From NCBI GenBank assembly GCA_000505065.1, contig AWSN01000001.1:385-64384 (forward strand): a stretch of DNA of 64,000 nucleotides, given 5' to 3'. The position numbers and the translations under genes were made by a program. The notes under the pieces were generated by a model. The model ran no database searches. It saw nothing but the letters and a program-made list of their open reading frames with translations, and was not told the DNA's origin. Positions 12,307 through 62,300 of this stretch are shown here, one piece after another; position 1 is the first letter of the stretch, and every line of letters starts with the position of its first letter. The stretch comes from Parcubacteria bacterium RAAC4_OD1_1. GTDB lineage: Bacteria > Patescibacteriota > Minisyncoccia > Phycocordibacterales > UBA9973.

Positions 12307-12342
12307 AGAGTAATGGAATTTTTTTATTGAATAAAAATAACA

Positions 12343-12384
12343 AAACCCCATACTTGGGAGCTCAGCTCCCAAGTATGGGGTTTT
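12343..12384 (+). terminator. long hairpin AAAACCCCATACTTGGGAGC-TCA-GCTCCCAAGTATGGGGTTTT terminating the rRNA unit; core is REP-1
   Basis: 19-bp perfect stem with A-run/T-run flanks. Central 21 nt are identical to the palindrome copies at 32.8 and 33.0-33.5 kb. Confidence 0.65.
12353..12373. repeat. REP-1 palindrome copy 1 (CTTGGGAGCTCAGCTCCCAAG)
   Basis: Exact 21-mer. Four full copies plus one partial copy in the window. Confidence 0.8.
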
Positions 12385-12436
12385 GACTTTTGTATTTTAT
12401 GGGTATATAAAGTAGATAAATTTAAAATATATTACC

Positions 12437-14988: not shown

Positions 14989-14997
14989 TTGATATTT

Positions 14998-15056
14998 CCA
15001 TAGGTCCGACCTATGGACAAAGTTTTAAAATAAAAGCCCATAGGTCGGACCTATGG
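14998..15056. repeat. REP-3 doublet: two inverted copies of palindrome CCATAGGTC(C/G)GACCTATGG (14998-15016 and 15038-15056) separated by 21 nt (REPIN-like)
   Basis: The two units are reverse complements of each other, differing only at the central base. The stem CCATAGG/CCTATGG is shared with REP-2 at 61 kb. Confidence 0.6.
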
Positions 15057-25395: not shown

Positions 25396-25419
25396 TGAGC
25401 TAGGCAAGACCTAGCTCAG
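25396..25419. terminator. hairpin TGAGCTAGG-CAAGA-CCTAGCTCA between convergent-less genes
   Basis: Perfect 9-bp stem. The loop and top of the stem (AGGCAAGACCT) are identical to the hairpin at 28961-28985. Confidence 0.4.
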
Positions 25420-32803: not shown

Positions 32804-32813
32804 ACTTGGGAGA

Positions 32814-32834
32814 ACTTGGGAGCTCAGCTCCCAA
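32814..32834. repeat. REP-1 palindrome copy 2 (preceded by a 9-nt partial duplicate CTTGGGAGA at 32804-32812)
   Basis: Exact CTTGGGAGCTCAGCTCCCAAG, 30 nt upstream of the RAYT-1 start. Confidence 0.8.
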
Positions 32835-32864
32835 GTTAAATGAAATAAAATTTTTATATAAATT

Positions 32865-33527
32865 ATGAGAAATTTAAAATTTGCAAATAAAGAATATTAT
32901 CATATTTATAATAGAGGAACAGACAAAAGAGATATCTTTTTAGAGAAAGAAGATGTCTGGCGTTTTTATAAAAGTTTGATTTTACTGAATTCTGTAGAAA
33001 AGATAGGGAGTTTATATGAAAATTCATTTAAAAAGAAGAATAAAATTAAACTTGGGAGCTCAGCTCCCAAGTTAGTGAATATTGTGGCTTATTGTTTAAA
33101 TCAAAATCATTTTCATTTAATTTTAGAGCAAGTAGCTGATAATGGTATTTCAAAATTTATGCATCGCTTATCTACTGGATATACTAATTATTTTAATGAG
33201 AAAAATAAAAGGACCGGATCTTTATTTGAAGGGAGATATAAAGCTAAACATATATCTTCAAATGAATACTTACTTCATTTAGGGGTGTATGTGAATTTAA
33301 ATGATAGGGTACATAAAGGAATGAATAAGGAGTGGATGAAAGAATTACCCTTTTCTAGTTTTAATGAATATGTAAATAAAAATATAAAAGGTATATGTAA
33401 GAAAGATATAATTCTTGGTCAATTTAAAAATGAGAAAGATTTTATTAAATACTGTCTTGAAGTTTTGCCAATTATAAAAAAAAGAAAGGAAGATTTAAAA
33501 GAGTTCAAAAATATCTGTATAGAATAA
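32865..33527 (+). CDS. REP-associated tyrosine transposase (IS200-like, COG1943 Y1/HUH family), RAYT-1
   Basis: YHIYNRGTDKRDIFLEKEDVWRFYKSL..., ...VAYCLNQNHFHLIL (HUH), ...KRTGSLFEGRYKAKHISSNEYLLHLGVYVNLN... (catalytic Tyr region). Flanked by inverted REP-1 copies. Confidence 0.65.
   Translation: MRNLKFANKEYYHIYNRGTDKRDIFLEKEDVWRFYKSLILLNSVEKIGSLYENSFKKKNKIKLGSSAPKLVNIVAYCLNQNHFHLILEQVADNGISKFMHRLSTGYTNYFNEKNKRTGSLFEGRYKAKHISSNEYLLHLGVYVNLNDRVHKGMNKEWMKELPFSSFNEYVNKNIKGICKKDIILGQFKNEKDFIKYCLEVLPIIKKRKEDLKEFKNICIE
33051..33071. repeat. REP-1 palindrome copy 3, located in frame inside RAYT-1 (encodes KLGSSAPKL)
   Basis: Exact 21-mer. 21 nt is 7 codons, so the reading frame is preserved. The paralogue RAYT-2 lacks these residues at the aligned position. 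Confidence 0.8.
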
Positions 33528-33529
33528 TC

Positions 33530-33550
33530 ACTTGGGAGCTGAGCTCCCAA
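33530..33550. repeat. REP-1 palindrome copy 4, inverted orientation (CTTGGGAGCTGAGCTCCCAAG)
   Basis: Central CTGAG versus CTCAG shows it is the reverse complement of copies 1-3. Lies 3 nt after the RAYT-1 stop. Confidence 0.8.
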
Positions 33551-33606
33551 GTGAATGGATTTTGGTGTAAATTTGAAAATAAGTTTAAAAATGCTATATT
33601 ATAAAG

Positions 33607-34332: not shown

Positions 34333-36270
34333 ATGAAGATTAGTTACAATTGGCTTAAAAGATATATAAAAGAAATTCCAAAAGAAGAAGATTTAGTAAA
34401 TCTTATTACATTTAAAATTTGTGAATTGGAATCTGTGGAAAAATCACCAAATGGTGATACTGTTTTTGATATGAAAATTTTACCAGATAGGGCGCATGAT
34501 TTGCTTTCTCATTATGGTGTTGCCAAAGAAATTGCTGGGATTTTGGGGATAAATATAACAGAGATTGATCAGAATATTCATTCTGAGAGCACGAATATTT
34601 CCTTGCTAGGAAATAACTCTCTCCGGCCAAGTCGGCCTGCGCAAGGCTCTCCAGAAGAACATTCCGCTTCGCTTACTTCAGGATTTGAAGATTTAAAAAT
34701 TGACGTAGAATCTCCTTTATGTAGAAGATATATGGGGAGAATAATTAGAGATATTGAGATTGGAGAATCTCCTTTGTGGATGAAAGAATTGCTCGAAAGT
34801 GTGGGACAGAGAAGTATAAATAACATTGTAGATATAACAAATTTTATACTTTTTGACAAAGGACAACCAATTCATGCTTTTGATTTAGATAAACTAGAAA
34901 GTGAAAAATTAATAGTGAGAAATGCCAAAATTGGAGAGAAGATAAATTTGCTTTCATATGAAAATTTAGGTAAAGAAAGAATTGTAGAATTAAGTGAGAA
35001 TAATTTAATAATCGCAGATGAAAAAGACCCGGTGGCTATCGCCGGAGTAAAGGGTGGCACAAAAGCTGAAGTAGATAAAAATACTAAAAATATTTTGATA
35101 GAGGTGGCAAATTTTGATCCAGTCTCTGTAAGGAAAACTGCAAGAGGTTTTGGTATTCAGACCGATGCTGTAAAAAGATTTGAGAATGAAATTATTCCTG
35201 ATTGGTGTAGCCCTGTGATGAATGAAGTTTCTTCTTTAATATTGGAAACTTGTGAGAATGCAAAATTAGAAAATATTGTAGATTTATATAATGAGAAAAA
35301 AGAAGAGAGGAAAATCACTTTCAATAGAGGATACATATCTAAAGTTTTGGGAGTAGAAATTAAAAATGAAGAAATAGAGAAAATTTTAAAAAATTATAAT
35401 TACAAATATAACTTTTTGCACAAGTCCGACTTGTGCGAAGTTGATATGTGGGAGATGGTGGTGCCGAAAGAAAGATTAGATATTAGTGGTGGGCACGATA
35501 TGGCAGAAGAGATAGGTAGAGTTTATGGGTATGACAAAATAGCATCTGTTTTGCCTGATTTGAAACTAAATCATAAAGATAGTGATACTTGGACAAAAAT
35601 TTGTTTAGCTAAAAATAAACTTGTAGAAGATGGCTATAAAGAAGTAATGACTTATGCTTTGGTAGAAAAAGGAGAAGTCGAAATAATGGCTAGTGCTTCG
35701 GATAAAAATTTCTTACGTACAAATTTATTAGATGGACTTAATAAATCTTATGAATTAAATAGACTCAATGCTCCGTTTTTAGAAATGCCAGAAATTAAAA
35801 TTTTTGAAGTTGGGACTGTGTTTACAAAAGATGGAGAAGAAATGCGTGTGGCTTATGTTGATAAAAAAAATAAAATTGAGATGAGTTTGGATAAATTTAT
35901 AGAAAAAGAATTTTCATCAGATTTTTTGCGGGAAAAGGCCTTGCCTTTAGAATCCCCAAGGCAAGGCCTTGAGGAGCAAAAAACTTTCAAGCTCTGGAGT
36001 AATTATCCATTCATAACGCGTGATGTCGCTGTGTGGGTGTCTACAGAAAAAGATGGAGAAGAACTTTATAAAATATTAAAAGAAAATGGGGGAGAATTGC
36101 TTATAAAAGATCCATACCTTTTTGATAAATTTACAAAAGGTGAAAAAACTTCATATGCATATCGATTAATTTTTCAATCTTATGATAGAACTTTGAATGA
36201 TGATGAAATAAATGAAATTTTGAATAGAATTTATGAGAAAATTAAACTAAATGGATGGGAGATAAGATAA
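34333..36270 (+). CDS. pheT: phenylalanine--tRNA ligase beta subunit (short form, 645 aa)
   Basis: N-terminal MKISYNWLKRYI, B3/4 and B5-like regions. C-terminal FDV-domain ...ITRDVAVWV.... Contains three GC-rich palindromic islands in frame. Confidence 0.8.
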   Translation: MKISYNWLKRYIKEIPKEEDLVNLITFKICELESVEKSPNGDTVFDMKILPDRAHDLLSHYGVAKEIAGILGINITEIDQNIHSESTNISLLGNNSLRPSRPAQGSPEEHSASLTSGFEDLKIDVESPLCRRYMGRIIRDIEIGESPLWMKELLESVGQRSINNIVDITNFILFDKGQPIHAFDLDKLESEKLIVRNAKIGEKINLLSYENLGKERIVELSENNLIIADEKDPVAIAGVKGGTKAEVDKNTKNILIEVANFDPVSVRKTARGFGIQTDAVKRFENEIIPDWCSPVMNEVSSLILETCENAKLENIVDLYNEKKEERKITFNRGYISKVLGVEIKNEEIEKILKNYNYKYNFLHKSDLCEVDMWEMVVPKERLDISGGHDMAEEIGRVYGYDKIASVLPDLKLNHKDSDTWTKICLAKNKLVEDGYKEVMTYALVEKGEVEIMASASDKNFLRTNLLDGLNKSYELNRLNAPFLEMPEIKIFEVGTVFTKDGEEMRVAYVDKKNKIEMSLDKFIEKEFSSDFLREKALPLESPRQGLEEQKTFKLWSNYPFITRDVAVWVSTEKDGEELYKILKENGGELLIKDPYLFDKFTKGEKTSYAYRLIFQSYDRTLNDDEINEILNRIYEKIKLNGWEIR

Positions 36271-36350: not shown

Positions 36351-36368
36351 ATAATATAATTGTATTTT

Positions 36369-39300
36369 ATGTTCAAAAAAGATAACAAATTAAAAGAAAA
36401 AATAAGTAAAATATTGCCACGTTTTTCTGTGCATTATGTTGCTTATTCTGTCTCATTTCTTTTTGTTGTTTTTTCTATTATTCACATTGTGTCTGCTACG
36501 ACTCCAAACCCAGGGCATCCTTGGAGTGAACTTGGTGATGGAGTCTTTTCTGTGACTTACAATCAGACTGCTCCACGTACTTATACATTTCCAGATGCAA
36601 ACGCAACTGTACTTACTACCAATGCCCCTGTGACTGTGGCTCAGGGAGGGACAGGACTTACAACAATTGCATCAGGATCAATCCTTGGTGCTAATTTAGC
36701 AAACACACTTTCTGCCATCACTTCTACAACAGGGACAAAAGTTCTTACAAATACAGATGGAACAATTAGTTGGGAAAATGAGCCAGACTCTATGGTTTAC
36801 CCATCTGCTGGGATTGCGGTTTCTACTGGCTCTGCATGGGGGACATCGATCACATCATCATCTCTATTAATTTCAAATATTTCAGATGAAGTTGGAACCG
36901 GGTATTTAGTCTTTAATGATTCACCATCTTTCACAACAAAAATTACAACACCACTTATACTCGGTGGAACTTCTACTACACAAGATTTATCTTTCCAAAC
37001 AACATCTGGTATTGGAGCAACAGGTGCTGATATGCATTTCAAAGTAGGGAATAATGGAGCAACTGAAGCGATGACGATTTTGAATAATGGGTATGTGGGA
37101 ATCGGGACGACGGGGCCAAGCGATAAGTTATCTGTAATAGGAGGAAATATTGCAATAGATGCTAGTTCAAAAATATATAATGGATCAGCTGCGGATAGTG
37201 CCGGTATAAGATTTCCAAGTTCTGTTACAGATATTGCTGGTTATAATGGAATAATATTTAGATCTAGCACAGTCGGAATAGCATCACAGACAGAAAGAAT
37301 GAGAATAACAAATACTGGCTCCGTCGGTATTGGGACGACGGCACCTACAGCGGTACTTCACCTAAAAGCAGGAACTGCAACAGCGGGAACTGCACCGCTT
37401 AAATTAACAAGCGGAGTAAATTTAACAACAGGAGAAGCAGGGGCAATGGAATACGATGGTGTAGAATTATATTTCACACCAAGTGGAACAACAAGAGAAA
37501 CTATTGCATATCTTTCTGATCTAACATCTGGATTAACTGGATATGTACCTTATACTGGTGCAACTACAAATGTAGATTTAGGGGTTCATAACTTAACTGT
37601 TGATACAAATACTTTGTTTGTTGATTCTGTGAATCATAGGGTGGGAGTGGGGACGACGACGCCAACTTATCTTTTGACTTTGAAAAGTCCAGCTTCTAAT
37701 ACAATATCTTTTTCTCTTGAAAAAACAGGAGCAACAACAACACCAGCATTGACTGCTTACGAGGGTTCTTCAACTCAAGGAGTAATGAATTTTTATGATA
37801 ACGGAAGTGCAATAGGAGCAAAAATACAAGGATATGGTGATTCATATTTTAACGGCGGCAACGTCGGAATTGGAACGACCTCTCCATTCTCTCCTGCATC
37901 AATAAATAAAGTGTTGAATATATACAAAGATACTGGTAGTGTTGGTCTTAATTTATCCGTTGGTCTTGAAGATTACGAAATAGCAAACGTTGCTGGTGAT
38001 TTGTGGTTTATAGATGATAATTCTACAAAAATAGTTGTAAAGAATACATCTGGCAACCTCCTCATTAACACTACAACCGACAACGGAGTTGACAAATTGC
38101 AGGTTAACGGCTCATTATCCACAGTAGGAAATGTGAGAGTTAATAAAAGAACAGATGCTTATAGGTATGTTGATATTTATAGTGATAATGTATATGGGTA
38201 TATACAAGTTAAAAGAGGAGATACAGATGCTGTAAGAGAATTAATTTTACAACCATCTGGTAGTTCTGTCGGTATCGGCACCACATCTCCCACCGCTGTA
38301 CTTCACCTAAAAGCTGGTACAGCCACCGCAGGCACTGCACCACTTAAACTAACAAGCGGAGTAAATTTAACAACAGGAGAAGCAGGAGCAATGGAATACG
38401 ATGGGACGGATCTTTTCTTTACCCCATCTACCACAAGAGAGACAGTAGCATTCTTGAGCGACATTACGGCTTCTGCTCATAATCCCGTCACTCTAGGTAC
38501 AGCAAACGGTCTCTCACTATCTACTCAACAACTCTCTTTAGCTCTAGCTTCTACTTCTACAACCGGTGCTCTTTCTTCTACAGACTGGAATACATTTAAC
38601 AACAAACAAGCAACTCTAGTATCTGGAACAAACATTAAAACAATCAACAGTGCTTCACTTCTAGGTAGTGGAGATATCGCTTTACAAACTCCACTTGTCG
38701 CTGATACTGATTACTTAACTCCAGGGACAGCAAGTTCTACGTATGCTCTTGCAACTAATGGTACATATTATATAGAAGGAACGGGGACTGTCGCTGGGAC
38801 ATGGCTCGGAAGTCATCCAAATATAACTTCGTATTATGATGGTTTGACTGTTCGATACTACACACCAATTGCTGGAGCTGCTACAACAACTTTAAATATA
38901 AATAGTCTTGGGGCCAAAACTATTTATTATGCTGGTGCAACCAAACTCACTACTCATTACCCAGCTTTGTCTGTTATTACTTTGACTTATTCTGCAACAC
39001 AAAATGGAGGGTCTTGGTTTGTTCAACCTTTTTATGCTGATGGGAATGAATCTTATACAGTTAGATGGAGCTCTACTCTTCAAGCCGGAGCTCCTATCTA
39101 TGATTACAAATTGGTAATGTTTGGAGCAAGTGATGGAAAAGTTTATCCTTTAACATTAGAAACAGGAACGGCTACAACGAAAACAGTTTCTAGTGTTGAA
39201 TTCAATCCAATGTCACCAGTTTTGTATTATGGTTCTACTACTGATATTGCTCTTGATGGAACATCTGCTTCTTATTGGTATGAAGGTGTGACTTCTGCTA

Positions 39301-42300
39301 ACTTACATTACACTGCAAACCAAGCTTCTGGGTGGACGGCATATACACCAATTTATATTAAAGGAACGATAACTTCTAGTGGAAATTTCTTACTAGCTGG
39401 AGCTGGAACTGTTGGCGGTACGGCTTTCTTAACTCAAACTCTTCCGACTACAGAAGATGGATTTGTTTATATGCTTTTGGGTCATACTTACAATACAACC
39501 ACTGCCTTTAGATTGACAACCAGCCATCCGATTTATGAATATAAAGGAGGAAAATTAAGACCATATACAAATGAAGCAGATACGTTAGATAGTGTCCTTG
39601 TAAGAGGAGCAACAACAGATGAGACCCCAACATTTTCAAATGCAACTTATTCAGCATTGTTTACGGGGGGAAATGTCGGGATTGGGACGGCGACACCAGG
39701 GGCGAAATTGCACATATCATCTGCAAGTGATAGTGATATTTTACTTGAAACGACAGGTACGAGCACAGGAGCAAGATTAAGATTAAAAAATTCTGCGAGT
39801 GAGTGGTATTTATACAACAATCAAGCAAATGGAATTTTGAAGTTTTATGCTGGAGCAGATAAATGGACTTTGGATACGAGTGGTAATGTTATACAAACAG
39901 GAAATTTGATAGTTCAGGGAACTGGGAACACAACAATAGCTGGCTCCGTCGGGATAGGCACCACCACTCCCACCGCTGTACTTCACCTAAAAGCTGGAAC
40001 TGCGACCGCAGGCACTGCTCCACTTAAATTAACAAGTGGAATAAACTTAACAACACCAGAAGCAGGAGCAATGGAATACAATGGAACAAGTCTATTCTTC
40101 TCTCCATCTACAACAAGATATCAAATACCATTTGCAACAGGAACAAATACAATATTCTTCACAACAACAGGAGCAACTAATGTCACACTTCCTACAACAG
40201 GAACACTTGCAACAACTGCAAATATTCCTACCGCTGCTAACCCATCAGCTACAATCGGACTCACAGCTGTAAATGGATCCGCTACAACATTTATGCGTTC
40301 TGATTCTGCTCCAGCTCTATCTCAAGCAATCGTTCCTACATGGACAGGAATACATACATTTAGTGCAATCCCTGCCTTCAACGGAGGAACATCTGGCTCC
40401 ACTGCTCCATTTAGTGTTGATTCAAATACTTTAGTTTCAAATTTGAATGCTGATTTGTTGGATGGACATGATACTGCATACTTCCAAACAGCACTTACGA
40501 ATCCTGTCACAGGGACGGGGACACTAAATTATGTTCCAAAGTTTACAGCTACAGGAACTACAATAGGCAACTCCTTAATTTTTGATAATGGAACGAATGT
40601 GGGGATTGGGACGACGACATTAACTGAAAAATTAACCATATCAGGAAATATAGATTTACCCGCTACTAATAATTGGAGGTATATTAAAAATTCTGCAACT
40701 AATGGTGGGCTTAGAATTGGTACAGGTAATAGTTCGGGGGTCTATACAGATGGTATAGAGGTTAGTTCTGGTGGCAGTTATGTTAAATTAAATCATAATA
40801 CGACAGTTACTGGAAATTTATATACTACAGGCAACGTCGGCATAGGGACGACGGCACCATTGAGTGCTCTAAATGTTGCAGGACTCACAGGAATTAATTG
40901 GGTAACTGCGGGCAATTCATATGGACTTGTTACTATTGGTACGCAAGGCACAATGGGAGGTGCTTTGTGGGTCAATACACCATCACTAAACGCCAGTAAT
41001 GCATCAGGTTTGGGAATAACTGGTTCATATGATGCCTCAAAAGTTTCTGTAGTTAATGTTAATGCGTATGGAGTGTATGCTGCTACCTACGGCTCAGCAT
41101 TAGCATTTTCAACTTCTAACGGAACTGCTTTGTCAGAGTGGATGAGAATTGATAAAAACGGCAACGTCGGGATTGGGACGACAAACCCATCAGCAAGATT
41201 AACTATTCAAACTGCGAATGCATCTTCTACTGGTGGTATTCGATTATTAGGAATAACTACTCCTACTGATATAAGTTATTGGGGGGAAACAGAATTGGCG
41301 ATGCAGTATGGTGGTGTTTATAAAAATGTAATTAATAATAATGGGGTTTCTTATTTTAATGGAGGTAACGTAGGAATTGGAACGACCTCACCAACAGCAG
41401 CTCTTCATTTAAAAGCCGGCACCGCCACCGTAGGCACTGCACCACTTAAACTAACCGCAGGTACAAACCTCACTACCGCTGAAGCAGGGGCAATGGAATA
41501 CGATGGGACAGATTTATTCTTTACTCCATCTACAACTAGAGAAACAGTAGCATTTATGAGCGATCTAACATCTGGGTATATCCCTTACACAGGAGGAACT
41601 TCAAATGTAGATTTAGGAGCTCATAATCTTACAGTAGATACAAATACATTATTTGTAGATAGTGTGAATCATAGGGTGGGGGTGGGGACTACTTCACCTG
41701 CTTACAAACTTGATGTGAATGGAGTTATGAGATTATCAACAACCACAGGTGATGTCTTTAGACTAGAAGGAAGCACCACTAATGGATATACAGATTTATT
41801 ATTTACTGGTAATGGAAATAATAATTATATATATAGTTTTGGTAGTTCTTATACTACAAATGGTAGATATGTTGGTGGCTCACAACTTATTGATGCTACT
41901 GGTTCTGGTGGTTTAGGTTTGGCAGCTTCAGCAACAGCAGGGACTATAAGATTTTATACTAATGCAAATAATGAGAGAATGAGGATAGATTCTTCTGGCA
42001 ACGTTGGTATTGGGACTACAACGCCAGACGGAAAATTAAACATAAGTAATGGTAGTATGAATACTTCTCGTGAGTCTGTAAACCATTATAGAGATGTAAT
42101 ACATTATAGTGGTGCTGCTTCTGTTACAGGAACGATGCAGATTACTATGCCATCAACAAAATTATGGTCTAATACAATGATGACAGTAACTATTAAGGGG
42201 TATAATTATAGTGCCCATGGAGCATGGGAAGCTGTTATTTCTGGATACAATTATAGCTCTACTTCACAGTGGTATAATTATACCGCTGAAATTAAAGGTA

Positions 42301-45300
42301 AAGCTCCATTTACTTCTATTAGACTTGCAAGTAATGGCACGAGTAATGTTATTTTACTTGGCACAACAACTACAGTTTGGGTTTATCCAAAAATAGAAGT
42401 CACTGATGTGATTACAGGCTATAGTAGTAATACAGGTTGGGGAGAAGGTTGGTCTATTACTCCAATTATAGATGAAGCTGCAATTGTAAATGCTGTTACT
42501 CCAACTATTCCGTATTTCTTAAATAATGTAGGCAATCTTGGGATTGGAACGACGACGCCGGGTACAAAACTTGATGTTGTGGGTGGTGCAATACGAACAG
42601 ACAATCAATTAATTTCTACAATTGTTACGGGGACATCTCCACTTTCTGTTGCTTCAACAACTTTAGTTTCTAATTTGAATGCAGATTTGTTGGATGGATT
42701 GCATGCTTCATCGTTTGTTACTTCTAGTAGTATTTCAGGAACACAAAATTATGTTTCTAAATTTAATGCCGCAGGGACGGGAGTAGTTAATTCACAGATT
42801 TTTGATAATGGAACGAATGTGGGGATTGGGACGACCAATCCTGATAGTTTTCTTGATGTAAGTGGTAGTGCTTCGGGAGGTAAAAGTCTTAGATTAAGAA
42901 GTGGTGATTCAGCAGGTACTCCTGCAGATTCTACTCAAATTCTTTTTTCTTATGGAGGAACTAATGAGTATTCTCATAATATAAGAACAAGACATGACTC
43001 TGGAGCTGCGGCTAACAATGCAATCGATTTTTATACATGGAATTATGGAGTAGATACATCTACTACAACAGGAACAAAACACATAATGACATTAGGTGGA
43101 ACAGGTAATGTCGGGATTGGGACGACGAGTCCACAGGCAAAATTGCACGTTTCAGGGAATTCATTTTTAGGTACATATTATGCAAACAATACAGCTATTA
43201 CTGATGCAGAAGTTATTACTGCTGGAGAAAATAAAATACTTAGTAATTTAACAAGAGGTAACTTAGATATAACAATGACATCTGTTCTTAATCCTGCTCC
43301 TGACTATGGTGCTTCTTTAACTTTTACTACTAATGCAGGTAATTATGGTACCGGTTATTATTATGTTGGTGGAGCTATTAAAACAGGTAGAACGAGTGGT
43401 GCTAATCAAAACCAAGCGCAATACATGTCGTTTTATACTAATAATGGTACTTCTTTGAGTGAAAAATTAAGAATTACACATGATGGCAACGTCGGAATTG
43501 GGACGACAAGTCCAGAAAGTATTTTACATCTTAGTAAGAGTGCCGCTGGCACATCAGGTCCTATTTTATTCTTAGATAATCCTTCTGCTTCTACTCTTGG
43601 TAGTTCTAGTGATATTAATTTTGCAACTTGGTCTGGAGAGTCTGCTACTACACCTGGAGCAAAAATAAGTTTAGTTAACACAGCGGCTGGAAGTGGTGCT
43701 AATGCTTTTACTTTTTATACTAAAAATACAAGTGGAGTTGTCGCAGAAAGAGTTAGGTTTGATTCACAGGGTAATGTCGGAATTGGAACGACGGGGCCGG
43801 GTACAAAACTTGATGTTGTGGGTGGTGCAATACGAACAGACAATCAATTAATTTCTACAATTGCTACGGGGACATCTCCACTTTCTGTTGCTTCAACAAC
43901 TTTAGTTTCTAATTTGAATGCTGATTTGTTGGATGGGATTAGTTCTACAAGTTTATTTAATAATATGGGACAAAATCATTCAGCACAAACAGATTTTAAT
44001 TCTATAACAGATTTTGGTACAAGATTTGTACAAGGTATTACAAATGGACCAGGGACAGGTTCATCACAATTTTATAGTTTGAATCTTGGCTTGGGAAATG
44101 ATTATGCATTTAGTTCATATGCAATGCAAATTTCAATTCCTAGATATACTGGAACTGATAAATATATATCATTTAGAACAAGAGAAGCTGGAGTATGGGG
44201 AACTTGGTCAAAAATAAGTGCAGGATATGCAGATACAGCAGGAAATGCAGATACTGTGGATGGATTACATGCGAGTGCATTCCAAACAGCACTTACGAAT
44301 CCTGTCACAGGGACGGGGACATTAAATTATATTCCAAAGTTTACAGCTACAGGATCTACAATAGGCAACTCCTTAATTTTTGATAATGGAACGAATGTGG
44401 GGATTGGCACAGCAACACCTAATCAACAACTTGAAATTACTAAAAACTTTAGATTGCCCGCCACCACTTATAATGCTGGTTCTCCCTATGGAATAATTTA
44501 TAAAGATGGGAATAGGTTTATTCACGACTTTAATTACGGAAATAATGGGACAGTGACGACTGCTGGACAGAATACTTTTATAGGTGTTAATGCTGGGAAT
44601 TTGACTATGGGTAGTACTGCTACATCAGTTTCCCATTCGTCATATAATACAGCGGTAGGTTATGTTTCTCTCTATTCCAACACCACAGGATACGCTAACT
44701 CTGCTATGGGGCATTATTCTCTTTTTGCTAATACCACAGGATACGCTAACTCTGCACAGGGGGTTAATTCTCTCTACTCCAACACTGGAGGATACAATAA
44801 CTCTGCTGTGGGATATTATTCTCTCTATTCCAACACTACAGGAAACCACAACTCCGCAATGGGTGTTAATTCTCTCTACTCCAATACTACAGGCTGGTAC
44901 AACTCAGCATTAGGTTATCAAGCAGGAAGATATATTGCTGATGGAACAACAGGTAGAACTACAGGTAACAACGGACTATATCTCGGATACAATTCTAAAG
45001 CTAGTGCAGATGGGACAACTAATGAAATAGTGATAGGGTATAATACTATAGGTGCTGGAAGTAATACCGCTGTCTATGGTAATACTTCAATGACTAAGCA
45101 TATATTTAGTAATGGTAACGTCGGTATTGGGACGACAAGTCCGGGGGCTATTTTATCTTTAGGTAGTTCTGCTGCTTATCAAAAGCTTTTAGTTTTTGAA
45201 TCTGGAAATACAAAAGCTGGCTTCGGACTTACTCCAACTGGAGATTTTAGATCTTTTACTCCAACAGGGACTACTTTGTCTTTTGGTCATATGTCTACTA

Positions 45301-50500: not shown

Positions 50501-51293
50501 TGAAAATTATATGGATGTATCTTATGATACTGATATTTCTTTTAAAGATAATTTTTATTCAAATGATGGAGTTGCTTTTACAAGCAATGCTCTTGATCCG
50601 ACAGTCGCAGGAACTATCGTAAATCAATCATATGTAGAATCAAATCCTTCAACTAATTTATCTGTTATTAATATTGGTCAATATGGTATGTGGGATTTCT
50701 CTTTGTATGATAAAAGTGTAAGCAATAGTAGCTCTTATTGTTTAAGAGTTGTTAAAGCAAATAATGAACTTTTAGATACTTATTCTTTTATCCCAGAAAT
50801 AACGACAGCTGTATATAGAAGCCGTGGAGGCGGAATCAGGCATATTGCAAATCCTTTATGTATGGATGGTATAGATAATGATTCAGATACATATATAGAT
50901 GGAAATGATTCGAATTGTCATATTAATGGGGTTTTAAGTAATAGTTATATTACTGATTGGAATTCTGAGACTGTTTCCCCTGTAATAGCAGAAGGAGGAA
51001 CTGTAGATGGAGGAGAAGAAGTTACTTTACCAGCTTGTAGTGATTGGATAGATAATGATTCTGATACTGATATAGATAATCTTGACCCAGGTTGCCACTT
51101 AGATGGTAATATAAATAATACTTACATTCCAGAACACAATTCAGAAACTGTCGCTCCTGTTTCAAATACAGGAGGAACTTCCGGAGATGATTCTGGTGAT
51201 CTTGGTTATTTAAATAATAAATTAATATTTCAATTTACTTCTTTAAAGAATCTCAAAAATTTATTACTCGCGATGGTTTTAAGACCCTTTTAA
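47559..51293 (+). CDS. 1244-aa N-anchored Thr/Ser/Gly-rich surface protein with a roughly 230-aa poly-Gly-rich block and two C-terminal Cys-flanked DxDxD (Ca-binding-like) modules
   Basis: Gly block ...GGGGGTENNNAAVGGGGAGG...SGSGGSGIVIIRY (about 49590-50260). Repeated C(M/S)D(G/W)IDNDSDT(Y/D)ID..D..CH(I/L)(N/D)G...NSETV(S/A)PV at about 50850-51170. Confidence 0.7.
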   Translation: MFYQNKKLKRKIFKNIKIGIFVFSFMFTSLFSYLPNLNTNEVKVAEAYVGTRVKTVEFFAGQYASSTLANAGVQNNFEVQNVEISETNVDIINSYIEFSAQVGANASTTITEGLLYFSACAGTSCTPATPAMVMNTAGLGTSTGESQTIRLRTNIATAGTDTDIFSTFTGGAFSFQVGYCIDGASGTDGSTCNGTVAASIQSANAKLVTTYTYDDTSTYQTNTVIYPLESNTTGPVGSKTIVQASCTMDSNCPKFSYNTNIPELSSQVSQFFHTQFFGGSVSTTTDHQFQAQVDGNTSGSTMYFEQALSDNGGAMDYLVSGLDGYENNTAQQLETRVNGNAYVLGGENYVTYKYPNSAGVKTKTIVLPVGEVQTVGSITKSSLVGPTVKFPETGVSIKKAWFRVHTSAGGQTTASNLNITTKVGSNTESLATAYSIGGTLEGVSDDGYFIHMIPSSDYSHLETANIDTGIPVQMSAQWSTPYGAVSGELVITYTYTGDTNGFNTTQRLFAGQSTTTASTTFSAPTGAVGGIVDPYIYQGIGNASILGVSLKMDGKDTSATANQTVGANMSVYPNACTSSDTFNSTTLTDTQITKVSLFKEITGVVTNNNTTTYTPCYNSSQATIFNGTVAITTMVDFREVVASGGTETTINVGGIDYKVHTFLSSGTFTVTSGGGIEYLVVGGGGGTENNNAAVGGGGAGGVLTGSTSTDAGSYSITVGSGGLGYFGGTPGQGQQGGSSSIGSLVVATGGGASNSLPNGGSGAGGTAYSSSYGPGGTGIAGQGYPGGAASATRRAGGGGGASQAGGNSGINNYGGDGGDGIQSSINGTATYYGGGGGGAGYTTNGQGDGGLGGGANGSYGAPTSNQNGTPNTGGGGGGSKLFSSTVRSGSGGSGIVIIRYPMSTEPSFSQLDYRFFENEDGNFVYSSLGSQNTNVSLSQSGEDFRLRMLLKIENYNMTVEKSHFKLQFSEKSGSCDTSFVGENYMDVSYDTDISFKDNFYSNDGVAFTSNALDPTVAGTIVNQSYVESNPSTNLSVINIGQYGMWDFSLYDKSVSNSSSYCLRVVKANNELLDTYSFIPEITTAVYRSRGGGIRHIANPLCMDGIDNDSDTYIDGNDSNCHINGVLSNSYITDWNSETVSPVIAEGGTVDGGEEVTLPACSDWIDNDSDTDIDNLDPGCHLDGNINNTYIPEHNSETVAPVSNTGGTSGDDSGDLGYLNNKLIFQFTSLKNLKNLLLAMVLRPF

Positions 51294-51747: not shown

Positions 51748-52723
51748 TTTATTTAAAAATATTTTTATAAAAATTTCTGTATTTTTAGTTTTATTTTTAC
51801 CACTTCATTCTTTTGCAGTTCTTTCTTGCTCTATTACTACTTCTGCTTTGTGTTCAGGGACGGTACTTCTTCGTATGTCAAGTAGTGACAATGCTCACGC
51901 TGAGCTCCCAAGTGAATCTACGATAGTTTATGATAATAATGTGGTTTGTTGTACAGGAGTGCCACAACTTTCAAATTCTTGTGCTGAATCTAATAAAGAA
52001 ATTTTTGCAAAATTATCTGGAGTGACGAATGCTCACGTAGAAGAAAATACACAATCAAATTATGTAAACAATGCTTGCATAGCTAGTACTTATGCTGGAG
52101 ATGAGATCACAGTAGGGTACCAGCCAAATGATTGTACTGGGTACGACACAATACTCTTTTCAATGTCTAATACTCCTACGAATTCTCAAGTAGGATCTCC
52201 GTCTTCATATAATAATAAAGTTTGTGCAAAAGTTTTTACGCAATCTATAACATTTAATATAAGTAATTATTCTGCTGGATTTGGGTATCTTTCTCCTTCG
52301 GGGATAAGATATGCTACTTCTGATGGGTTGGGTAGTTCTGTGGAAACAGAAGCTTACAATGTGGATATTAGCACCAATGCTTCTTCTGGTTATACTTTGT
52401 ATGTAAGAGGAGATACTTTAAAGAATGGATCTTATACTATAGATCCTATAGGTGGAACCAACATAACACCATCTCCTGGGTCAAATGCTTTTGGATTAAG
52501 AGCTGTAGCGACAGGGGGCAATGGTATAGTTTCTTCACCTTATGATGGGACTGGTTTTGCTTATGATGCTACAAATGCTACTCCCTCTGAGATAGGTTTT
52601 GCTACTTCGGGGAATGGTTTAAATACAGATTATTCTATTAGGTCTGTGGCCACTATTGATGATATTTTAAACTATGGTCTTTATTCAACTAACCTTACTT
52701 ATATAGTTGTCCCCAACTTTTAA
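51737..52723 (+). CDS. secreted Cys/Ser/Thr-rich hypothetical protein; contains a half REP-1 copy in frame (51901-51917)
   Basis: Signal peptide. TGAGCTCCCAAGTGAAT encodes AELPSE. Confidence 0.5.
   Translation: MMNNLFKNIFIKISVFLVLFLPLHSFAVLSCSITTSALCSGTVLLRMSSSDNAHAELPSESTIVYDNNVVCCTGVPQLSNSCAESNKEIFAKLSGVTNAHVEENTQSNYVNNACIASTYAGDEITVGYQPNDCTGYDTILFSMSNTPTNSQVGSPSSYNNKVCAKVFTQSITFNISNYSAGFGYLSPSGIRYATSDGLGSSVETEAYNVDISTNASSGYTLYVRGDTLKNGSYTIDPIGGTNITPSPGSNAFGLRAVATGGNGIVSSPYDGTGFAYDATNATPSEIGFATSGNGLNTDYSIRSVATIDDILNYGLYSTNLTYIVVPNF
51901..51917. repeat. partial REP-1 (TGAGCTCCCAAGTGAAT), identical to the right half plus flank of copy 4
   Basis: 17/17 match to 33539-33555. Confidence 0.6.
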
Positions 52724-60988: not shown

Positions 60989-61015
60989 TTAGCCATAGGC
61001 CTTGCCTATGGCTAA
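60989..61015. repeat. REP-2 palindrome copy a (TTAGCCATAGG-CCTTG-CCTATGGCTAA)
   Basis: 8 nt after the gyrB stop. Confidence 0.8.
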
Positions 61016-61528: not shown

Positions 61529-61554
61529 TTAGCCATAGGCCTTGCCTATGGCTA
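61529..61554. repeat. REP-2 copy b (same orientation as a)
   Basis: TTAGCCATAGGCCTTGCCTATGGCTA, 26 nt upstream of RAYT-2. Confidence 0.8.
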
Positions 61555-61579: not shown

Positions 61580-62263
61580 ATGAGTTTTAGGAATGAAAAA
61601 ATATTACCAGATGAATATTGTCATATTTATAATCGTGGTAATGGTAAAAGTAAAATATTTTTAGACAAAGAAGATTATGATCGTTTTATTAAGATTCTTT
61701 TTATTTGTAATTCAAAAAATAAATTTGTTTTTCGTGAATCTATTATAAAAAGTAAAATAAATGCATGGGATTTTGAAAGGGGGAATAGATTGGTAGATAT
61801 TGGAGCTTGGGTATTGATGCCAAACCATTTTCATATTTTATTGATTTCTTCTAGCCATAGGCAAGGCCTATGGCAAAAAGATTTAAATCCTATTTCTATA
61901 TTTATGCAAAAAGTTTCAACTGCTTATGCTATGTATTTTAATAAAAAATATAATAGAACAGGTTCGTTATTTGAAGGAAAATTTAAATTAAAAAATATCC
62001 ATAAGGAAAATTATTTAGAATATTTGTTTTCATATATACACTTAAATCCAATAAAATTAATACAAAAAGATTGGAAAGAAAATGGAATAAAAAATAAAGA
62101 TAAAGCATTAGAATATTTAAATAAGTTTAAATATTCTAGTTATTTAGATTATAAAAATCCTAATAGGACAGAAAGTAAAATATTAAATAAAGAATTTTTT
62201 CCAGAATCTTTTGATAATATAAATAATAAAGAACTAATTAATATATTTACTTCATATGTATAA
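61580..62263 (+). CDS. REP-associated tyrosine transposase (IS200-like Y1/HUH family), RAYT-2
   Basis: Paralogue of 32865..33527: YCHIYNRGNGKSKIFLDKEDYDRFIKIL..., ...GAWVLMPNHFHILL (HUH), ...NRTGSLFEGKFKLKNIHKENYLEYLFSYIHLNP... Confidence 0.65.
   Translation: MSFRNEKILPDEYCHIYNRGNGKSKIFLDKEDYDRFIKILFICNSKNKFVFRESIIKSKINAWDFERGNRLVDIGAWVLMPNHFHILLISSSHRQGLWQKDLNPISIFMQKVSTAYAMYFNKKYNRTGSLFEGKFKLKNIHKENYLEYLFSYIHLNPIKLIQKDWKENGIKNKDKALEYLNKFKYSSYLDYKNPNRTESKILNKEFFPESFDNINNKELINIFTSYV
61852..61875. repeat. REP-2 copy c, in frame inside RAYT-2 (TAGCCATAGGCAAGGCCTATGGCA encodes SSHRQGLWQ)
   Basis: Inverted orientation (loop CAAGG). The paralogue RAYT-1 is about 9 aa shorter here. Confidence 0.75.
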
Positions 62264-62274: not shown

Positions 62275-62300
62275 TTAGCCATAGGCAAGGCCTATGGCTA
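62275..62300. repeat. REP-2 copy d, inverted orientation (loop CAAGG)
   Basis: TTAGCCATAGGCAAGGCCTATGGCTA, 12 nt after the RAYT-2 stop. Confidence 0.8.

What the first reader, a model, noticed from the sequence alone, without database searches (positions are those of the whole stretch)
34621..35970. GC-rich palindromic islands embedded in frame in pheT (RPE-like behaviour)
pheT is otherwise AT-rich but contains three GC-rich palindromes, all preserving the reading frame.
- CCGGCCAAGTCGGCCTGCGCAAGGC (34621-34652).
- GCACAAGTCCGACTTGTGC (35418-35436).
- The inverted pair AAGGCCTTGCCTT / AAGGCAAGGCCTT (35935-35970).
The last shares the 11-mer AGGCAAGGCCT with REP-2. The centre GTCCGAC recurs in REP-3 (15 kb).

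Together with the REP fragment inside the gene at 51901, this resembles Rickettsia palindromic elements, which colonise ORFs in frame.
Basis: partly seen in the sequence, partly recalled or inferred. Interest (0 to 1): 0.6.

Follow-up and report, generated by a model that had tools for sequence, protein, structure and literature searches.

The report
Palindromic repeat elements translated inside pheT
The gene for an essential tRNA-charging enzyme in this tiny-genome (CPR) bacterium carries three small hairpin-forming repeat elements in its reading frame; the same elements lie between genes, inside other genes and next to their likely transposase genes, so selfish palindromes here become part of proteins, as is known in Rickettsia.

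Summary
pheT (34333-36270, 32% GC) carries three GC-rich, hairpin-forming stretches in frame. Against 29 orthologs, each lies in a variable loop or linker, and AlphaFold2 models each as a low-confidence loop.

- **E1 (34577-34692):** a three-helix element of about 110 nt.
- **Site 2 (35416-35436):** a 19-nt perfect palindrome, extra relative to all 29 orthologs.
- **E3 (35922-35983):** a 62-nt two-helix hairpin made of two inverted REP units, the REPIN layout.

All three belong to dispersed families:
- E1 sits at a different pheT site in other genomes, and between recA and efp in DNA that appears to be this genome.
- E3 occurs about 27 times in Patescibacteria genomes: in pheT, ileS, comEC, a cysteine-desulfurase-like gene, a methyltransferase, and just after stop codons.
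- Both show strong compensatory covariation.
- Site 2 matches intergenic REPs and the in-frame REP inside RAYT-like transposase genes.

The window encodes two such transposases. Each is flanked by its own REPs and carries one in frame.

Most likely these are REP/REPIN-type selfish palindromes that survive in coding DNA only where they keep the frame. Mobilisation by the RAYTs is inferred, not shown. They behave like Rickettsia palindromic elements but are not members of that family. I found no prior report for CPR bacteria.

The parts
34333..36270 (+). pheT (phenylalanine--tRNA ligase beta subunit), the host gene: 645 aa against about 600-610 in most orthologs
   Evidence: Pfam B3_4, B5, tRNA_synthFbeta and FDX-ACB. 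100% identical to a Nomurabacteria PheT. Ortholog alignment A1.
34577..34692 (+). E1: a three-helix GC-rich element read in frame (residues about 82-120, IHSESTNISLLGNNSLRPSRPAQGSPEEHSASLTSGFED). The structured core is 34577-34659. The 90-nt indel relative to the closest relative is 34603-34692.
   Evidence: Codon alignment with L001. Copies at pheT site 3 in L004, L005 and L007, with the first 36 nt identical to L004. Model R2 also finds copies at L064:13892-14002 (intergenic, apparently the same genome), in L001 pheT site 3, and at L054:3803-3912, where no ORF of 50 aa or more covers it. 93% of cells pair and 14 of 27 pairs show compensatory change. pLDDT is below 50 for residues 79-118.
35416..35436 (+). 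Site 2: a 7-codon insertion (LHKSDLC) holding the perfect 19-nt palindrome GCACAAGTCCGACTTGTGC (35418-35436), in a B5-domain hairpin loop
   Evidence: Absent from all 29 aligned orthologs. Perfect 9-bp stem. The related palindrome GCCACAAGTCGGACTTGTGGC is in frame in L003 pheT and intergenic at L054:6230-6256. L007 pheT has CATAGGTCGGACCTATG, which is the window's REP-3. The right arm GACTTGTGC is identical to the internal REP of the third RAYT. pLDDT is below 50 at residues 365-368.
35922..35983 (+). E3: a 62-nt two-helix hairpin read in frame (DFLREKALPLESPRQGLEEQKT). Outer helix TTTTTTGC/GCAAAAAA, internal loop GGGAA/GAGGA, inner 13-bp helix at 35935-35947 and 35958-35970, 10-nt loop. Each arm is itself a small REP-like hairpin, so the whole is a REPIN-like inverted doublet.
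   Evidence: Model R1 scores 83 bits at 35919-35986. About 27 copies in Patescibacteria genomes. Covariation: 90.5% paired, 0 of 500 shuffles reach it. DNA fold -20.5 kcal/mol, z = -5.7. pLDDT is below 50 at residues 534-553.
32865..33527 (+). RAYT-1: a Y1 (HUH) transposase-like gene immediately upstream of pheS
   Evidence: Pfam Y1_Tnp at 32 bits, above the cutoff of 23. NCBIfam REP_Tyr_transpos at 22 bits, below its cutoff. HUH motif NHFHLIL. The gene is absent from the same position in the closest relative, L001.
32813..32837 (.). REP-1 copy upstream of RAYT-1 (AACTTGGGAGCTCAGCTCCCAAGTT)
   Evidence: (family D13)
33049..33073 (.). REP-1 copy inside the RAYT-1 coding sequence, in frame (KLGSSAPKL)
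   Evidence: The L002 ortholog has its own variant REP at the same three positions.
33528..33554 (.). REP-1 copy downstream of RAYT-1
12341..12385 (.). Extended REP-1 hairpin downstream of the 5S rRNA gene
51899..51917 (+). Half of REP-1 (19-nt exact match to 33538-33556) inside ORF 51737-52723
61580..62263 (+). RAYT-2: a RAYT-like transposase gene
   Evidence: NCBIfam REP_Tyr_transpos at 41.7 bits, below its cutoff. The best solved-structure match of the AlphaFold2 model is 4ER8, the E. coli REP-associated tyrosine transposase bound to a REP hairpin: E = 3.8e-5, probability 1.00. More than 6,600 homologs, the named ones from Patescibacteria; some are labelled RayT by JGI.
60990..61014 (.). 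REP-2 copy (TAGCCATAGGCCTTGCCTATGGCTA), 9 nt after the gyrB stop codon
   Evidence: (family D12)
61530..61554 (.). REP-2 copy upstream of RAYT-2
61854..61874 (.). REP-2 copy inside the RAYT-2 coding sequence, in frame (SSHRQGLWQ), just after the HUH motif
   Evidence: It lies in the homologous position of the SHRSDLW/SHRQGLW segment found across the family.
62276..62300 (.). REP-2 copy downstream of RAYT-2
14997..15056 (.). REP-3 inverted doublet (TCCATAGGTCCGACCTATGGA ... CCATAGGTCGGACCTATGG). It is intergenic and folds as one long hairpin, the REPIN layout.
   Evidence: z = -10

Best explanation
The three islands are in-frame copies of short, GC-rich, hairpin-forming repeat elements of the REP/REPIN type. 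These elements populate this Nomurabacteria genome and many other Patescibacteria genomes.

**Proposed mechanism (inferred).** The elements are copied as single-stranded DNA hairpins by the RAYT-like Y1/HUH transposases encoded nearby. These are RAYT-1 at 32865 and RAYT-2 at 61580, plus a third paralog on DNA that appears to belong to the same genome. Most copies land between genes, typically a few bases after a stop codon. Copies that land inside a gene persist only under three conditions:
- their length is a multiple of three;
- the frame they are read in has no stop codon;
- they fall in a surface loop or an inter-domain linker.

In pheT those places are the B1/B3-4 linker (E1), a B5 hairpin loop (site 2) and the linker before the anticodon-binding domain (E3). 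There the elements are transcribed and translated as disordered peptide.

**Why the hairpin persists.** Pairing is kept by selection on the nucleic acid, most simply because the transposase recognises a folded hairpin. This produces the compensatory changes seen between copies.

**Shown:** the insertions, their dispersal, the structure and covariation, the sequence link to the RAYT-flanking REPs, and the RAYT fold.

**Inferred:** that RAYTs move them, that they are translated, and that they are neutral passengers in pheT.
For: **1. They are insertions.**
- Ortholog alignment A1 and codon alignments place all three in indel-rich loops or linkers.
- Site 2 is absent from 29 of 29 orthologs.

**2. 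They move between sites.**
- The E1 peptide and DNA are at site 1 here but at site 3 in L004, L005 and L007. The first 36 nt are identical to L004 although the proteins are only about 54% identical.
- The E3 motif is at site 3 here but at site 1 in P0120/L006.

**3. They are dispersed beyond pheT.**
- A genome scan for the E3 core gave 53 hits (about 17 expected by my own back-of-envelope estimate). About 27 carry the full extended consensus. By record title these are Patescibacteria MAGs, apart from two labelled only 'uncultured bacterium'.
- These copies lie in pheT, ileS, comEC, an Aminotran_5 gene and a SAM-methyltransferase. They occur in three reading frames and both orientations. Twelve more are intergenic, sitting within a few nt after stop codons where an upstream gene was seen.
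- E1 also lies between recA and efp on L064, in DNA that appears to be this genome, and in L054.

**4. Their structure is conserved.**
- E3: 90.5% of cells pair and all 8 outer-helix pairs covary. The inner pair 21-48 is split CG 12 / UA 11. None of 500 shuffles reaches these values.
- E1: 93% paired, with 14 of 27 pairs changed on both sides.

**5. They link to RAYT/REP sequences.**
- Both RAYT genes in the window are flanked by their own REPs.
- The E3 arms share AGGCAAGGCCT with REP-2: 6 matches against 0.01 expected.
- The syntenic RAYT ortholog in L065 is flanked by REPs with the same apex, and its pheT carries an E3-like insert.
- Site 2 shares its right arm with the internal REP of the third RAYT and its centre with REP-3. 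L007 pheT carries REP-3 itself at this site.
- The RAYT-2 model matches 4ER8 best.

**6. They are tolerated as loops and kept open.**
- pLDDT is below 50 exactly at residues 79-118, 365-368 and 534-553.
- In the frame where the E3 consensus reads TGA, the two genic copies (L036, L014) have lost that stop.
Against: - **Low copy number where I could look.** One E3, one E1 and one site-2 palindrome occur in 64 kb. There were only two exact-core E3 hits in a complete 704-kb relative. This is far below classical REPIN populations.
- **Unusual conservation across genomes.** E1 and E3 keep near-identical loops and internal-loop sequences across genomes whose PheT proteins are only about 55% identical. 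That is more than hairpin maintenance alone requires. It could mean a host function or horizontal spread.
- **Variable outer helices.** They differ between copies yet stay paired, which fits in-situ selection at least as well as copy-and-paste.
- **Some copies look overwritten rather than inserted.** The REP-encoded SHKSDLW and SHRSDLW in L003 and L007 pheT occupy a loop of the same length as in orthologs without a palindrome. The REP-1 inside RAYT-1 likewise adds no length. These suggest conversion or overwriting rather than simple insertion.
- **No polymorphism.** I found no empty-site versus filled-site pair between near-identical genomes.
- **Missing link for E1.** No RAYT was linked directly to E1.
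- **No expression data.** Translation is not shown experimentally.
Confidence: 0.7

Rival explanations
1. The hairpins are functional structures kept by the host, not mere passengers. They might be mRNA elements that slow ribosomes at domain boundaries, stabilise or process transcripts, or bind a conserved protein. They would be conserved in place across Patescibacteria and inherited mostly vertically.
For: - Loop and internal-loop sequences, not only the stems, are nearly invariant across about 27 E3 copies from distant genomes.
- The outer helices differ between loci yet stay paired.
- Orthologous copies sit at the same position of ileS (4 genomes), comEC (5) and pheT.
- The internal REP of the third RAYT is fully paired only if two G-U wobbles are allowed, which is typical of RNA-level constraint.
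- Copy number per genome looks low.
- Intergenic copies sit right after stop codons, where E. coli REPs are reported to affect mRNA stability (the E. coli point is from my own knowledge).
- In pheT, two of the three inserts lie exactly in inter-domain linkers.
Against: - The same element occupies different sites in orthologs of one gene.
- It occurs in either orientation and in three frames.
- It is missing from many close relatives.
- The closest relative keeps only a remnant of about 24 nt of E1 without apparent harm.
- No Rfam family matches.
- Linkers and loops are also simply the only places where an insertion can survive.
Confidence: 0.17
2. The inserts are not translated. They would be removed from the transcript or bypassed by the ribosome, as with the GC-rich 'byp' elements of some yeast mitochondria or small introns.
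For: - GC-rich palindromes in an AT-rich genome resemble mitochondrial GC clusters and byp elements (my own knowledge).
- The 23S rRNA gene in the window is about 500 nt longer than the model, so intervening sequences may exist in this genome.
Against: - Every genic copy examined is in frame and free of stop codons: three in pheT here, and more than 15 in other genes and genomes.
- Copies in the frame where the consensus has TGA have lost the stop.
- Insert lengths are multiples of three: 90, 21 and about 60 nt.
- No ribozyme or intron family matches.
- There is an ascertainment caveat: only open frames were counted as genic. However, the copies I called intergenic lie between separate genes, not inside split ones.
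Confidence: 0.04
3. The islands are ordinary ancestral linker sequence whose GC-richness and self-complementarity are chance or compositional effects.
For: GC-rich stretches are common in the window's genes: 85 islands of at least 62.5% GC. Most of these probably encode conserved Gly/Pro/Ala-rich motifs, though only a few were checked.
Against: - The ortholog alignment shows indels, not conserved residues.
- Shuffles give P = 0.0015 for a 13-bp stem and P = 0.019 for two stems of at least 9 bp.
- The same DNA recurs in unrelated genes and in intergenic DNA, with covariation.
- The 11-mer is shared with REP-2: 6 matches against 0.01 expected.
Confidence: 0.02

Closest known systems
REP / REPIN sequences with their RAYT (REP-associated tyrosine transposase), as described in Pseudomonas and Enterobacteria (Bertels & Rainey 2011, PMC3116915; Bertels et al. 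2017, PMC5581495; structure 4ER8)
   Same: - Short GC-rich palindromes, 19-25 nt.
- Inverted doublets that fold into one long hairpin (E3, and the REP-3 pair at 14997-15056).
- Transposase genes of the Y1/HUH type flanked by their own REPs.
- Compensatory changes that keep the hairpin.
- Intergenic copies close to gene ends.
- The RAYT locus is syntenic between genomes (gyrB-NUDIX-RAYT here and in L065), which fits vertical inheritance.
   Different: - Copies lie inside coding sequences, in frame, including essential aminoacyl-tRNA synthetase genes. By definition REPs are extragenic.
- Copy numbers seen here are low.
- At least three RAYT paralogs seem to share one genome.
- Each RAYT gene carries a copy of its own REP inside its reading frame.
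- The RAYTs score below NCBIfam's cutoff for the family.
- E1 is a three-helix composite, not a simple doublet.
- The host is a CPR bacterium. I found no report of RAYT/REPIN systems in CPR bacteria in the library searched.
Rickettsia palindromic elements (RPE; Ogata et al. 2000, cited from my own knowledge; mentioned in PMC1458961 and PMC1166351)
   Same: - Palindromic repeats found both between genes and in frame inside many unrelated protein-coding genes.
- They add surface peptide segments without destroying function.
- The host has a small, AT-rich genome.
   Different: - RPEs are Rickettsia-specific families of about 100-150 bp with no known transposase.
- Two of the three pheT elements here are much shorter (21 and 62 nt).
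- The elements here show the REP/REPIN anatomy and sit beside candidate transposases.
- Sequence relatedness to RPE families was not tested, and none is expected.
MITEs and IS200/IS605-derived palindrome-associated elements (review PMC10969869)
   Same: - Small non-autonomous elements with strong secondary structure.
- They are sometimes found in frame in genes.
- IS200/IS605 transposases are the relatives of RAYTs and act on single-stranded hairpins.
   Different: - No shared terminal inverted repeats and no target-site duplications are visible in the 27 aligned E3 copies.
- No full-length parent IS was found.
Mitochondrial GC clusters and byp translational-bypass elements of yeasts (from my own knowledge)
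   Same: GC-rich palindromes invading the protein-coding genes of an AT-rich genome.
   Different: Byp elements break the reading frame and are skipped by the ribosome. Here every genic copy keeps an open frame.

Membership tests
REP/REPIN | Short, GC-rich, imperfectly or perfectly palindromic unit that folds as a hairpin | tested here: met
   Site 2 has a 9-bp stem. The E3 arms and REP-1, -2 and -3 are hairpins.
REP/REPIN | Two REP units in inverted orientation separated by a short spacer, folding as one long hairpin (REPIN) | tested here: met
   E3: 13-nt arms, 10-nt spacer, each arm itself a mini-hairpin. The REP-3 pair at 14997-15056 folds with z = -10.
REP/REPIN | A cognate RAYT gene flanked by the same REP sequence | tested here: met
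   This holds for REP-1/RAYT-1 and REP-2/RAYT-2 in the window and for the L002, L045, L064 and L065 loci. For the pheT elements the link is indirect. E3 shares an 11-mer apex with REP-2. Site 2 shares an arm and centre with the RAYT-3 and REP-3 sequences. No RAYT was linked to E1.
REP/REPIN | High copy number within a genome (tens to hundreds) | tested here: inconclusive
   Only 64 kb of the window plus about 20 kb of apparently the same genome were available, giving 1-5 copies per family. There were two exact-core E3 hits in a complete 704-kb relative. A whole-genome census was not possible.
REP/REPIN | Extragenic location | tested here: not met
   The pheT copies, the copies inside both RAYT genes, and the E3 copies in ileS, comEC, the Aminotran_5 gene and the methyltransferase are all intragenic and in frame.
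RAYT (REP-associated tyrosine transposase) | Y1/HUH transposase fold with an HUH motif and a catalytic tyrosine region | tested here: met
   HUH motifs are NHFHLIL and NHFHILL, and the YIHLNP motif is present. Pfam Y1_Tnp is above its cutoff for RAYT-1. The RAYT-2 model's best solved-structure hit is 4ER8, E = 3.8e-5, followed by IS608 and ISDra2 TnpA.
RAYT (REP-associated tyrosine transposase) | Score above NCBIfam's curated cutoff for REP_Tyr_transpos (NF047646, 80 bits) | tested here: not met
   Scores were 22.3 and 41.7 bits. A profile search of PDB sequences found nothing at E <= 0.01. These are distant relatives at best.
RAYT (REP-associated tyrosine transposase) | Binds and cleaves its REP as single-stranded DNA | not testable with these tools
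   This needs biochemistry.
Rickettsia palindromic elements (RPE) | Palindromic repeats found both intergenically and in frame in many unrelated ORFs | tested here: met
   E3 is in five gene families plus intergenic sites. E1 is in pheT at two sites plus intergenic sites.
Rickettsia palindromic elements (RPE) | Sequence membership in one of the RPE families of Rickettsia | not tested
   No RPE reference sequences were available. The host is a Patescibacteria bacterium, so membership is not expected.
MITE | Terminal inverted repeats shared by all copies, and target-site duplications | tested here: not met
   In the 27 aligned E3 copies the outermost helix differs between loci, and no flanking direct repeats are visible. 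This was by inspection only.
Translational bypass (byp) elements / introns | The insert interrupts the frame or carries stops and must be skipped or spliced | tested here: not met
   All genic copies are open and in frame, and stops have been lost where the consensus has one. No intron or ribozyme family matched.

The most novel reading that the evidence does not exclude
These hairpins may be more than junk that happens to be tolerated. They could form a conserved, phylum-wide system in which RAYT-type enzymes and their hairpin substrates are tied into host genes.

- Each RAYT carries its own recognition hairpin inside its reading frame, kept identical to the flanking copies. This could serve self-regulation, or act as a master template.
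- Copies embedded in frame in essential genes (pheT, ileS, comEC) would be protected from deletion.
- They may also act at the mRNA level, for example as pause, stability or processing signals. That would explain their near-identical loops and their compensatory changes through G-U intermediates across very distant genomes.
Probability: 0.15. Interest if true: 0.85.

Novelty: new variant of a known kind. Interest (0 to 1): 0.65.

Why it matters
REP/REPIN elements are treated as strictly extragenic. In-frame 'selfish DNA in proteins' is known mainly from Rickettsia, where no transposase is known.

**What this locus adds.**
- The two phenomena meet in a candidate-phyla-radiation bacterium: hairpin repeats with a plausible transposase next door are written into essential genes and apparently translated.
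- It would help explain the patchy, low-complexity insertions that inflate CPR proteins and confuse alignments and structure predictions.
- It gives a concrete enzyme-substrate pair to test: RAYT plus a 19-25-nt hairpin.
- It raises a new question: why do these RAYT genes carry their own REP in frame, and why does that copy evolve in concert with the flanking ones?

**Practical use.** The covariance models for E1 and E3 could be used to mask or annotate such inserts in Patescibacteria genomes.

Tried and rejected
- **E1 DNA pattern in genome contigs.** Zero hits. The pattern was too strict, and the window's genome is apparently not in that collection. The same pattern in metagenome contigs returned only two contigs, both carrying the P0011-type pheT copy I already had.
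- **Concatenated E3 peptides, three frames, against the 5.8-billion-protein index.** Only 2 candidates and no score.
- **The 40-aa E1 peptide against 1.84 billion representatives.** Nothing at E <= 0.001. The query is too short to be informative, so this is not evidence of absence.
- **Rfam on the pheT region at E <= 10.** Only chance-level snoRNA-type matches.
- **RAYT family profile against PDB sequences.** No hit. The fold comparison was needed instead.
- **blastn-short of the elements against the window.** For E1 and site 2, no second copy in the 64 kb. The E3 part of the output was cut off, so model R1 covered it.
- **GC islands as a signal in themselves.** Rejected, because 85 such islands exist in the window's genes. 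The few I recognised are conserved motifs (for example a P-loop), but I did not check them systematically.
- **The truncated pheS call in L001.** I suspected an element might break the gene, but it is only a run of N.
- **Kink-turn, bulge-helix-bulge, terminator and DNA-uptake-sequence readings of E3.** Dropped after inspecting the sequence. The motifs do not fit, and the T-run is on the wrong side of the hairpin.
- **The palindrome at 27612 in the methyltransferase gene.** The ortholog has the same length, so I did not count it as an insertion.
Full report
**Setting.** The window is AT-rich, about 30% GC outside the rRNA genes and one giant gene. It contains a 23S and a 5S rRNA gene, a tRNA-Ser and densely packed genes. 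The ORF at 34333-36270 is a complete PheT with B3_4, B5, tRNA_synthFbeta and FDX-ACB domains. It is 100% identical to a protein annotated from a Candidatus Nomurabacteria bacterium (Patescibacteria/CPR) on a 693,530-bp contig. It is 645 aa long, whereas most of the 120 best homologs are 592-620 aa.

**The observation.** The three GC-rich stretches exist and lie in frame.
- Island 2 (35418-35436) is a perfect 9-bp stem with a 1-nt loop.
- Island 3 is a perfect 13-nt inverted pair, 35935-35947 and 35958-35970.
- Island 1's quoted string lies at 34623-34647. By itself it forms only a 4-bp hairpin, and it is the centre of a larger structure.

Codon shuffles of pheT give P = 0.019 for two perfect stems of at least 9 bp and P = 0.0015 for any 13-bp stem. 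The gene is 29.8% GC without the elements, and the elements are 47-58% GC. The cross-references also hold:
- AGGCAAGGCCT occurs six times in the window against 0.01 expected, twice in pheT and four times in REP-2.
- GTCCGAC is the centre of REP-3.
- 51899-51917 is a 19-nt exact copy of half of REP-1.

GC-rich islands as such are common in the window's genes: 85 at the threshold I used. The GC content is therefore not the signal. The palindromy and the indel status are.

**Are they insertions?** I aligned this PheT with 29 orthologs. I also fetched the DNA of pheT orthologs (loci L001-L007; L065 came later with a RAYT look-up).
- Site 2 is seven codons (LHKSDLC, 35416-35436) that every other ortholog lacks.
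- Site 1 lies in a 30-codon segment (34603-34692) missing from the closest relative, L001, which is 82% identical in the 30-sequence alignment and 76% by BLASTP.
- Site 3 is a 20-residue cassette (FLREKALPLESPRQGLEEQK) that the closer relatives lack.

An AlphaFold2 model built on that alignment has good confidence in the domains. It has pLDDT below 50 exactly at residues 79-118, 365-368 and 534-553, plus two short regions that are not insertions. These three segments are the B1/B3-4 linker, a B5 hairpin loop and the linker before the anticodon-binding domain.

**Are they mobile cassettes?** The peptide motifs recur in other PheT orthologs, but not always at the same place.
- The E1 motif (NISLLGN...AQGS) is at site 1 here but at site 3 in P0029, P0056, P0118 and P0011.
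- The E3 motif (LPLxSPRQ) is at site 3 here and in six others, but at site 1 in P0120.
- A third cassette (VLGRG...PDHSQK) sits at site 1, at site 3, or at both.

At the DNA level, the first 36 nt of E1 are identical between the window (site 1) and L004 (site 3), although the proteins are about 54% identical. L001 keeps only about the first 24 nt of E1 at site 1, so it looks like a deletion derivative rather than a naive empty site.

**E3 beyond pheT.** I scanned species-representative genomes for the E3 core TTGCCTTTA-N6-CCAAGGCAA. The scan gave 53 hits, with about 17 expected by my own back-of-envelope estimate. About 27 of them carry the full extended consensus. By record title these are Patescibacteria MAGs (Paceibacteria, Nomurabacteria, some labelled Saccharibacteria), apart from two labelled only 'uncultured bacterium'.

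The hosts of these copies are:
- pheT;
- a class I aminoacyl-tRNA synthetase of the IleRS type (4 genomes, same position);
- comEC (5 genomes);
- an Aminotran_5 cysteine-desulfurase-like gene;
- a SAM-dependent methyltransferase;
- 12 intergenic sites.

Genic copies occur in both orientations and in three reading frames, giving LPLGSPRQ, LALGSLKA and LAFREPKA. In the frame where the consensus reads TGA, the two genic copies have lost the stop. Where an upstream gene was seen, the intergenic copies sit within a few nt after its stop codon, between same-strand genes.

**E3 structure.** The aligned copies support a two-helix hairpin:
- 90.5% of cells pair.
- All eight outer-helix pairs covary.
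- The inner pair 21-48 is split CG 12 / UA 11.
- None of 500 shuffles reaches these values.

As DNA the window copy folds at -20.5 kcal/mol, z = -5.7. Each arm is itself a small hairpin (AAAGGC-CTT-GCCTTT and CAAGGC-AAG-GCCTTG). E3 is therefore two inverted REP-like units with a short spacer, which is the REPIN layout. A covariance model finds only the pheT copy in the window and one copy per fetched locus.

**E1 beyond pheT.** A model built from four copies also found three more:
- an intergenic copy between recA and efp on L064, which appears to be DNA of the same genome;
- a diverged copy at pheT site 3 of L001;
- a copy in L054 in a stretch with no ORF of 50 aa or more.

Seven copies support a three-helix structure: 93% of cells pair, 14 of 27 pairs change on both sides, and none of 500 shuffles reaches this.

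**Site 2 and the REP families.**
- L003 pheT has GCCACAAGTCGGACTTGTGGC at this site, encoding SHKSDLW. The identical 21-mer forms an intergenic, terminator-like hairpin in a Nomurabacteria genome at L054:6230-6256.
- L007 pheT has CATAGGTCGGACCTATG here, encoding SHRSDLW. That is the window's REP-3.
- The two versions differ by two compensatory pair changes.

**The transposases.** The window encodes two Y1/HUH transposase-like proteins.
- RAYT-1 (32865-33527) lies between a UvrD-like helicase gene and pheS. RAYT-2 lies at 61580-62263.
- Each is flanked by its own palindrome: REP-1 at 32813 and 33528, and REP-2 at 60990, 61530 and 62276.
- Each carries one more copy in frame inside its own coding sequence, at 33049 and 61854.
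- The RAYT-2 model matches the E. coli REP-associated tyrosine transposase bound to a REP hairpin (4ER8) best, followed by the IS608 and ISDra2 transposases.
- NCBIfam's RAYT model is hit only below its cutoff.
- The family is very large, with more than 6,600 homologs; the named ones are from Patescibacteria.

**Concerted change of REP copies.**
- In L002, a RAYT-1 ortholog (77% identical) has a different REP variant at the same three positions: upstream, internal and downstream. All three copies changed together.
- In L065, a syntenic RAYT-2 ortholog (gyrB-NUDIX-RAYT) has REPs with different stems but the same apex, AGGC-CTT/AAG-GCCT. This includes the internal copy. The pheT next door carries an E3-like insert.
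- Across the RAYT-2 family, the segment after the HUH motif reads SHRSDLW or SHRQGLW. Where I had the DNA, this segment is encoded by the REP palindrome. It is the same peptide seen in the pheT B5 loop.
- A third paralog, P0179, is recorded on a contig of the same length as the window's. It is flanked by GCATAGGTC-N-GACCTATGC.
- Its internal copy is GCATAGGTCGGACTTGTGC. The right arm of this copy is identical to the pheT site-2 palindrome, and the stem is closed only with two G-T/G-U pairs.
- L001 lacks RAYT-1 and its REPs at the helicase-pheS junction.

**Interpretation.** The simplest account is that these are REP/REPIN-type elements. They are probably copied by the RAYT-like enzymes acting on single-stranded hairpins. 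In coding DNA they survive only where length, frame and protein structure allow. That is the behaviour described for Rickettsia palindromic elements. Here, however, the anatomy is that of REP/REPIN sequences and a candidate enzyme lies nearby.

The enzyme step and translation are inferences. Several points do not fit a plain selfish-repeat model:
- low copy numbers where I could count;
- near-identical loops across very distant genomes;
- outer helices that differ between loci yet remain paired;
- cases where the palindrome occupies a loop without changing its length.

These points keep a functional (RNA-level or regulatory) reading alive at roughly one chance in six.

**Prior knowledge.** Four full-text searches combined CPR/Patescibacteria terms with RAYT, REPIN, palindromic or in-frame insertion. 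None turned up a paper describing this. The library is incomplete, so this is absence of evidence only.

**Verdict.** I rate it a new variant of a known kind: REP/REPIN-RAYT elements behaving like RPEs, in a CPR bacterium. A by-product worth following up is that the RAYT genes carry their own REP in frame.

Noticed in passing
window 33049-33073 and 61854-61874; L002:~970-990; L064:10268-10288; L065:4274-4298: Every RAYT-like gene of these two families that I examined carries a copy of its own flanking REP inside its reading frame. The internal copy changes together with the flanking copies from genome to genome, which looks like concerted evolution. One more distant RAYT in L045 has no such copy near the HUH motif, only REPs at its ends. 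Across the RAYT-2 family this segment reads SHRSDLW or SHRQGLW.
   Followed up: partly
L064:10268-10288 (third RAYT, apparently the same genome as the window): The internal REP GCATAGGTCGGACTTGTGC pairs fully only with two G-T/G-U wobbles. It looks like an intermediate between the CATAGG/CCTATG and CACAAG/CTTGTG palindrome variants, which hints at constraint at the RNA level.
   Followed up: no
window 8651-12086: The 23S rRNA gene spans 3,436 nt against a 2,925-position model. It therefore probably contains about 500 nt of inserted sequence, as reported for CPR rRNA genes.
   Followed up: no
window 36360-47501 and 47559-51293: A giant ORF (3,713 aa) directly downstream of pheT has many internal repeats built around GNVGIGTT-encoding units (families D1-D10). 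It is followed by a 1,244-aa Gly-rich ORF. Both are more GC-rich (37-38%) than most other genes in the window.
   Followed up: no
PheT orthologs P0002, P0003, P0009-P0012, P0017, P0031, P0033, P0041, P0097, P0101, P0120 (alignment A1): Further recurrent cassettes occupy the same and other loops of PheT in other genomes: VLGRGGWEPVPDHSQK, VLGSPRKEIGELGQTSSEK, SASAEDYGGTKEE, KPASxxGGD and HPLALAGSPHQAGGEE. In-frame colonisation is therefore widespread and involves several element families.
   Followed up: partly
L001:5243-5280 versus window 32804-33606: The closest relative has no RAYT-1 and no REP-1 between the helicase gene and pheS. The whole RAYT-plus-REP unit is therefore present in one genome and absent in the other.
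   Followed up: partly
L010, L026, L040, L017, L033, L043, L054, L022: Intergenic E3 copies sit within a few nt after a stop codon, and in several cases they abut or overlap the next gene's start. They would be part of polycistronic transcripts.
   Followed up: partly
L023 and L058 (IleRS-type synthetase ORFs): In L058 the class I synthetase that hosts E3 also contains a histidine-phosphatase (His_Phos_1) domain inserted in the catalytic domain. The L023 protein looks similar by eye but was not scanned against Pfam.
   Followed up: no
window 3487-3516, 7293-7317, 8144-8178, 16472-16507, 18962-18994, 25396-25418: Unique GC-rich perfect hairpins lie just downstream of genes. They look like terminators or single-copy REPs and do not belong to families REP-1, -2 or -3.
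   Followed up: no
E1 hairpin B, e.g. window 34626-34638; L007, L064, L001 copies: In three copies (L007, L064, L001) the loop of the second inner E1 hairpin reads CGTC. That tetranucleotide is reported as a tag of one REP superfamily (PMC3733652). The stem below it covaries (GGCC, GGCT/AGCC, GGTC/GACC, GGGC/GCCC, GCGC).
   Followed up: no
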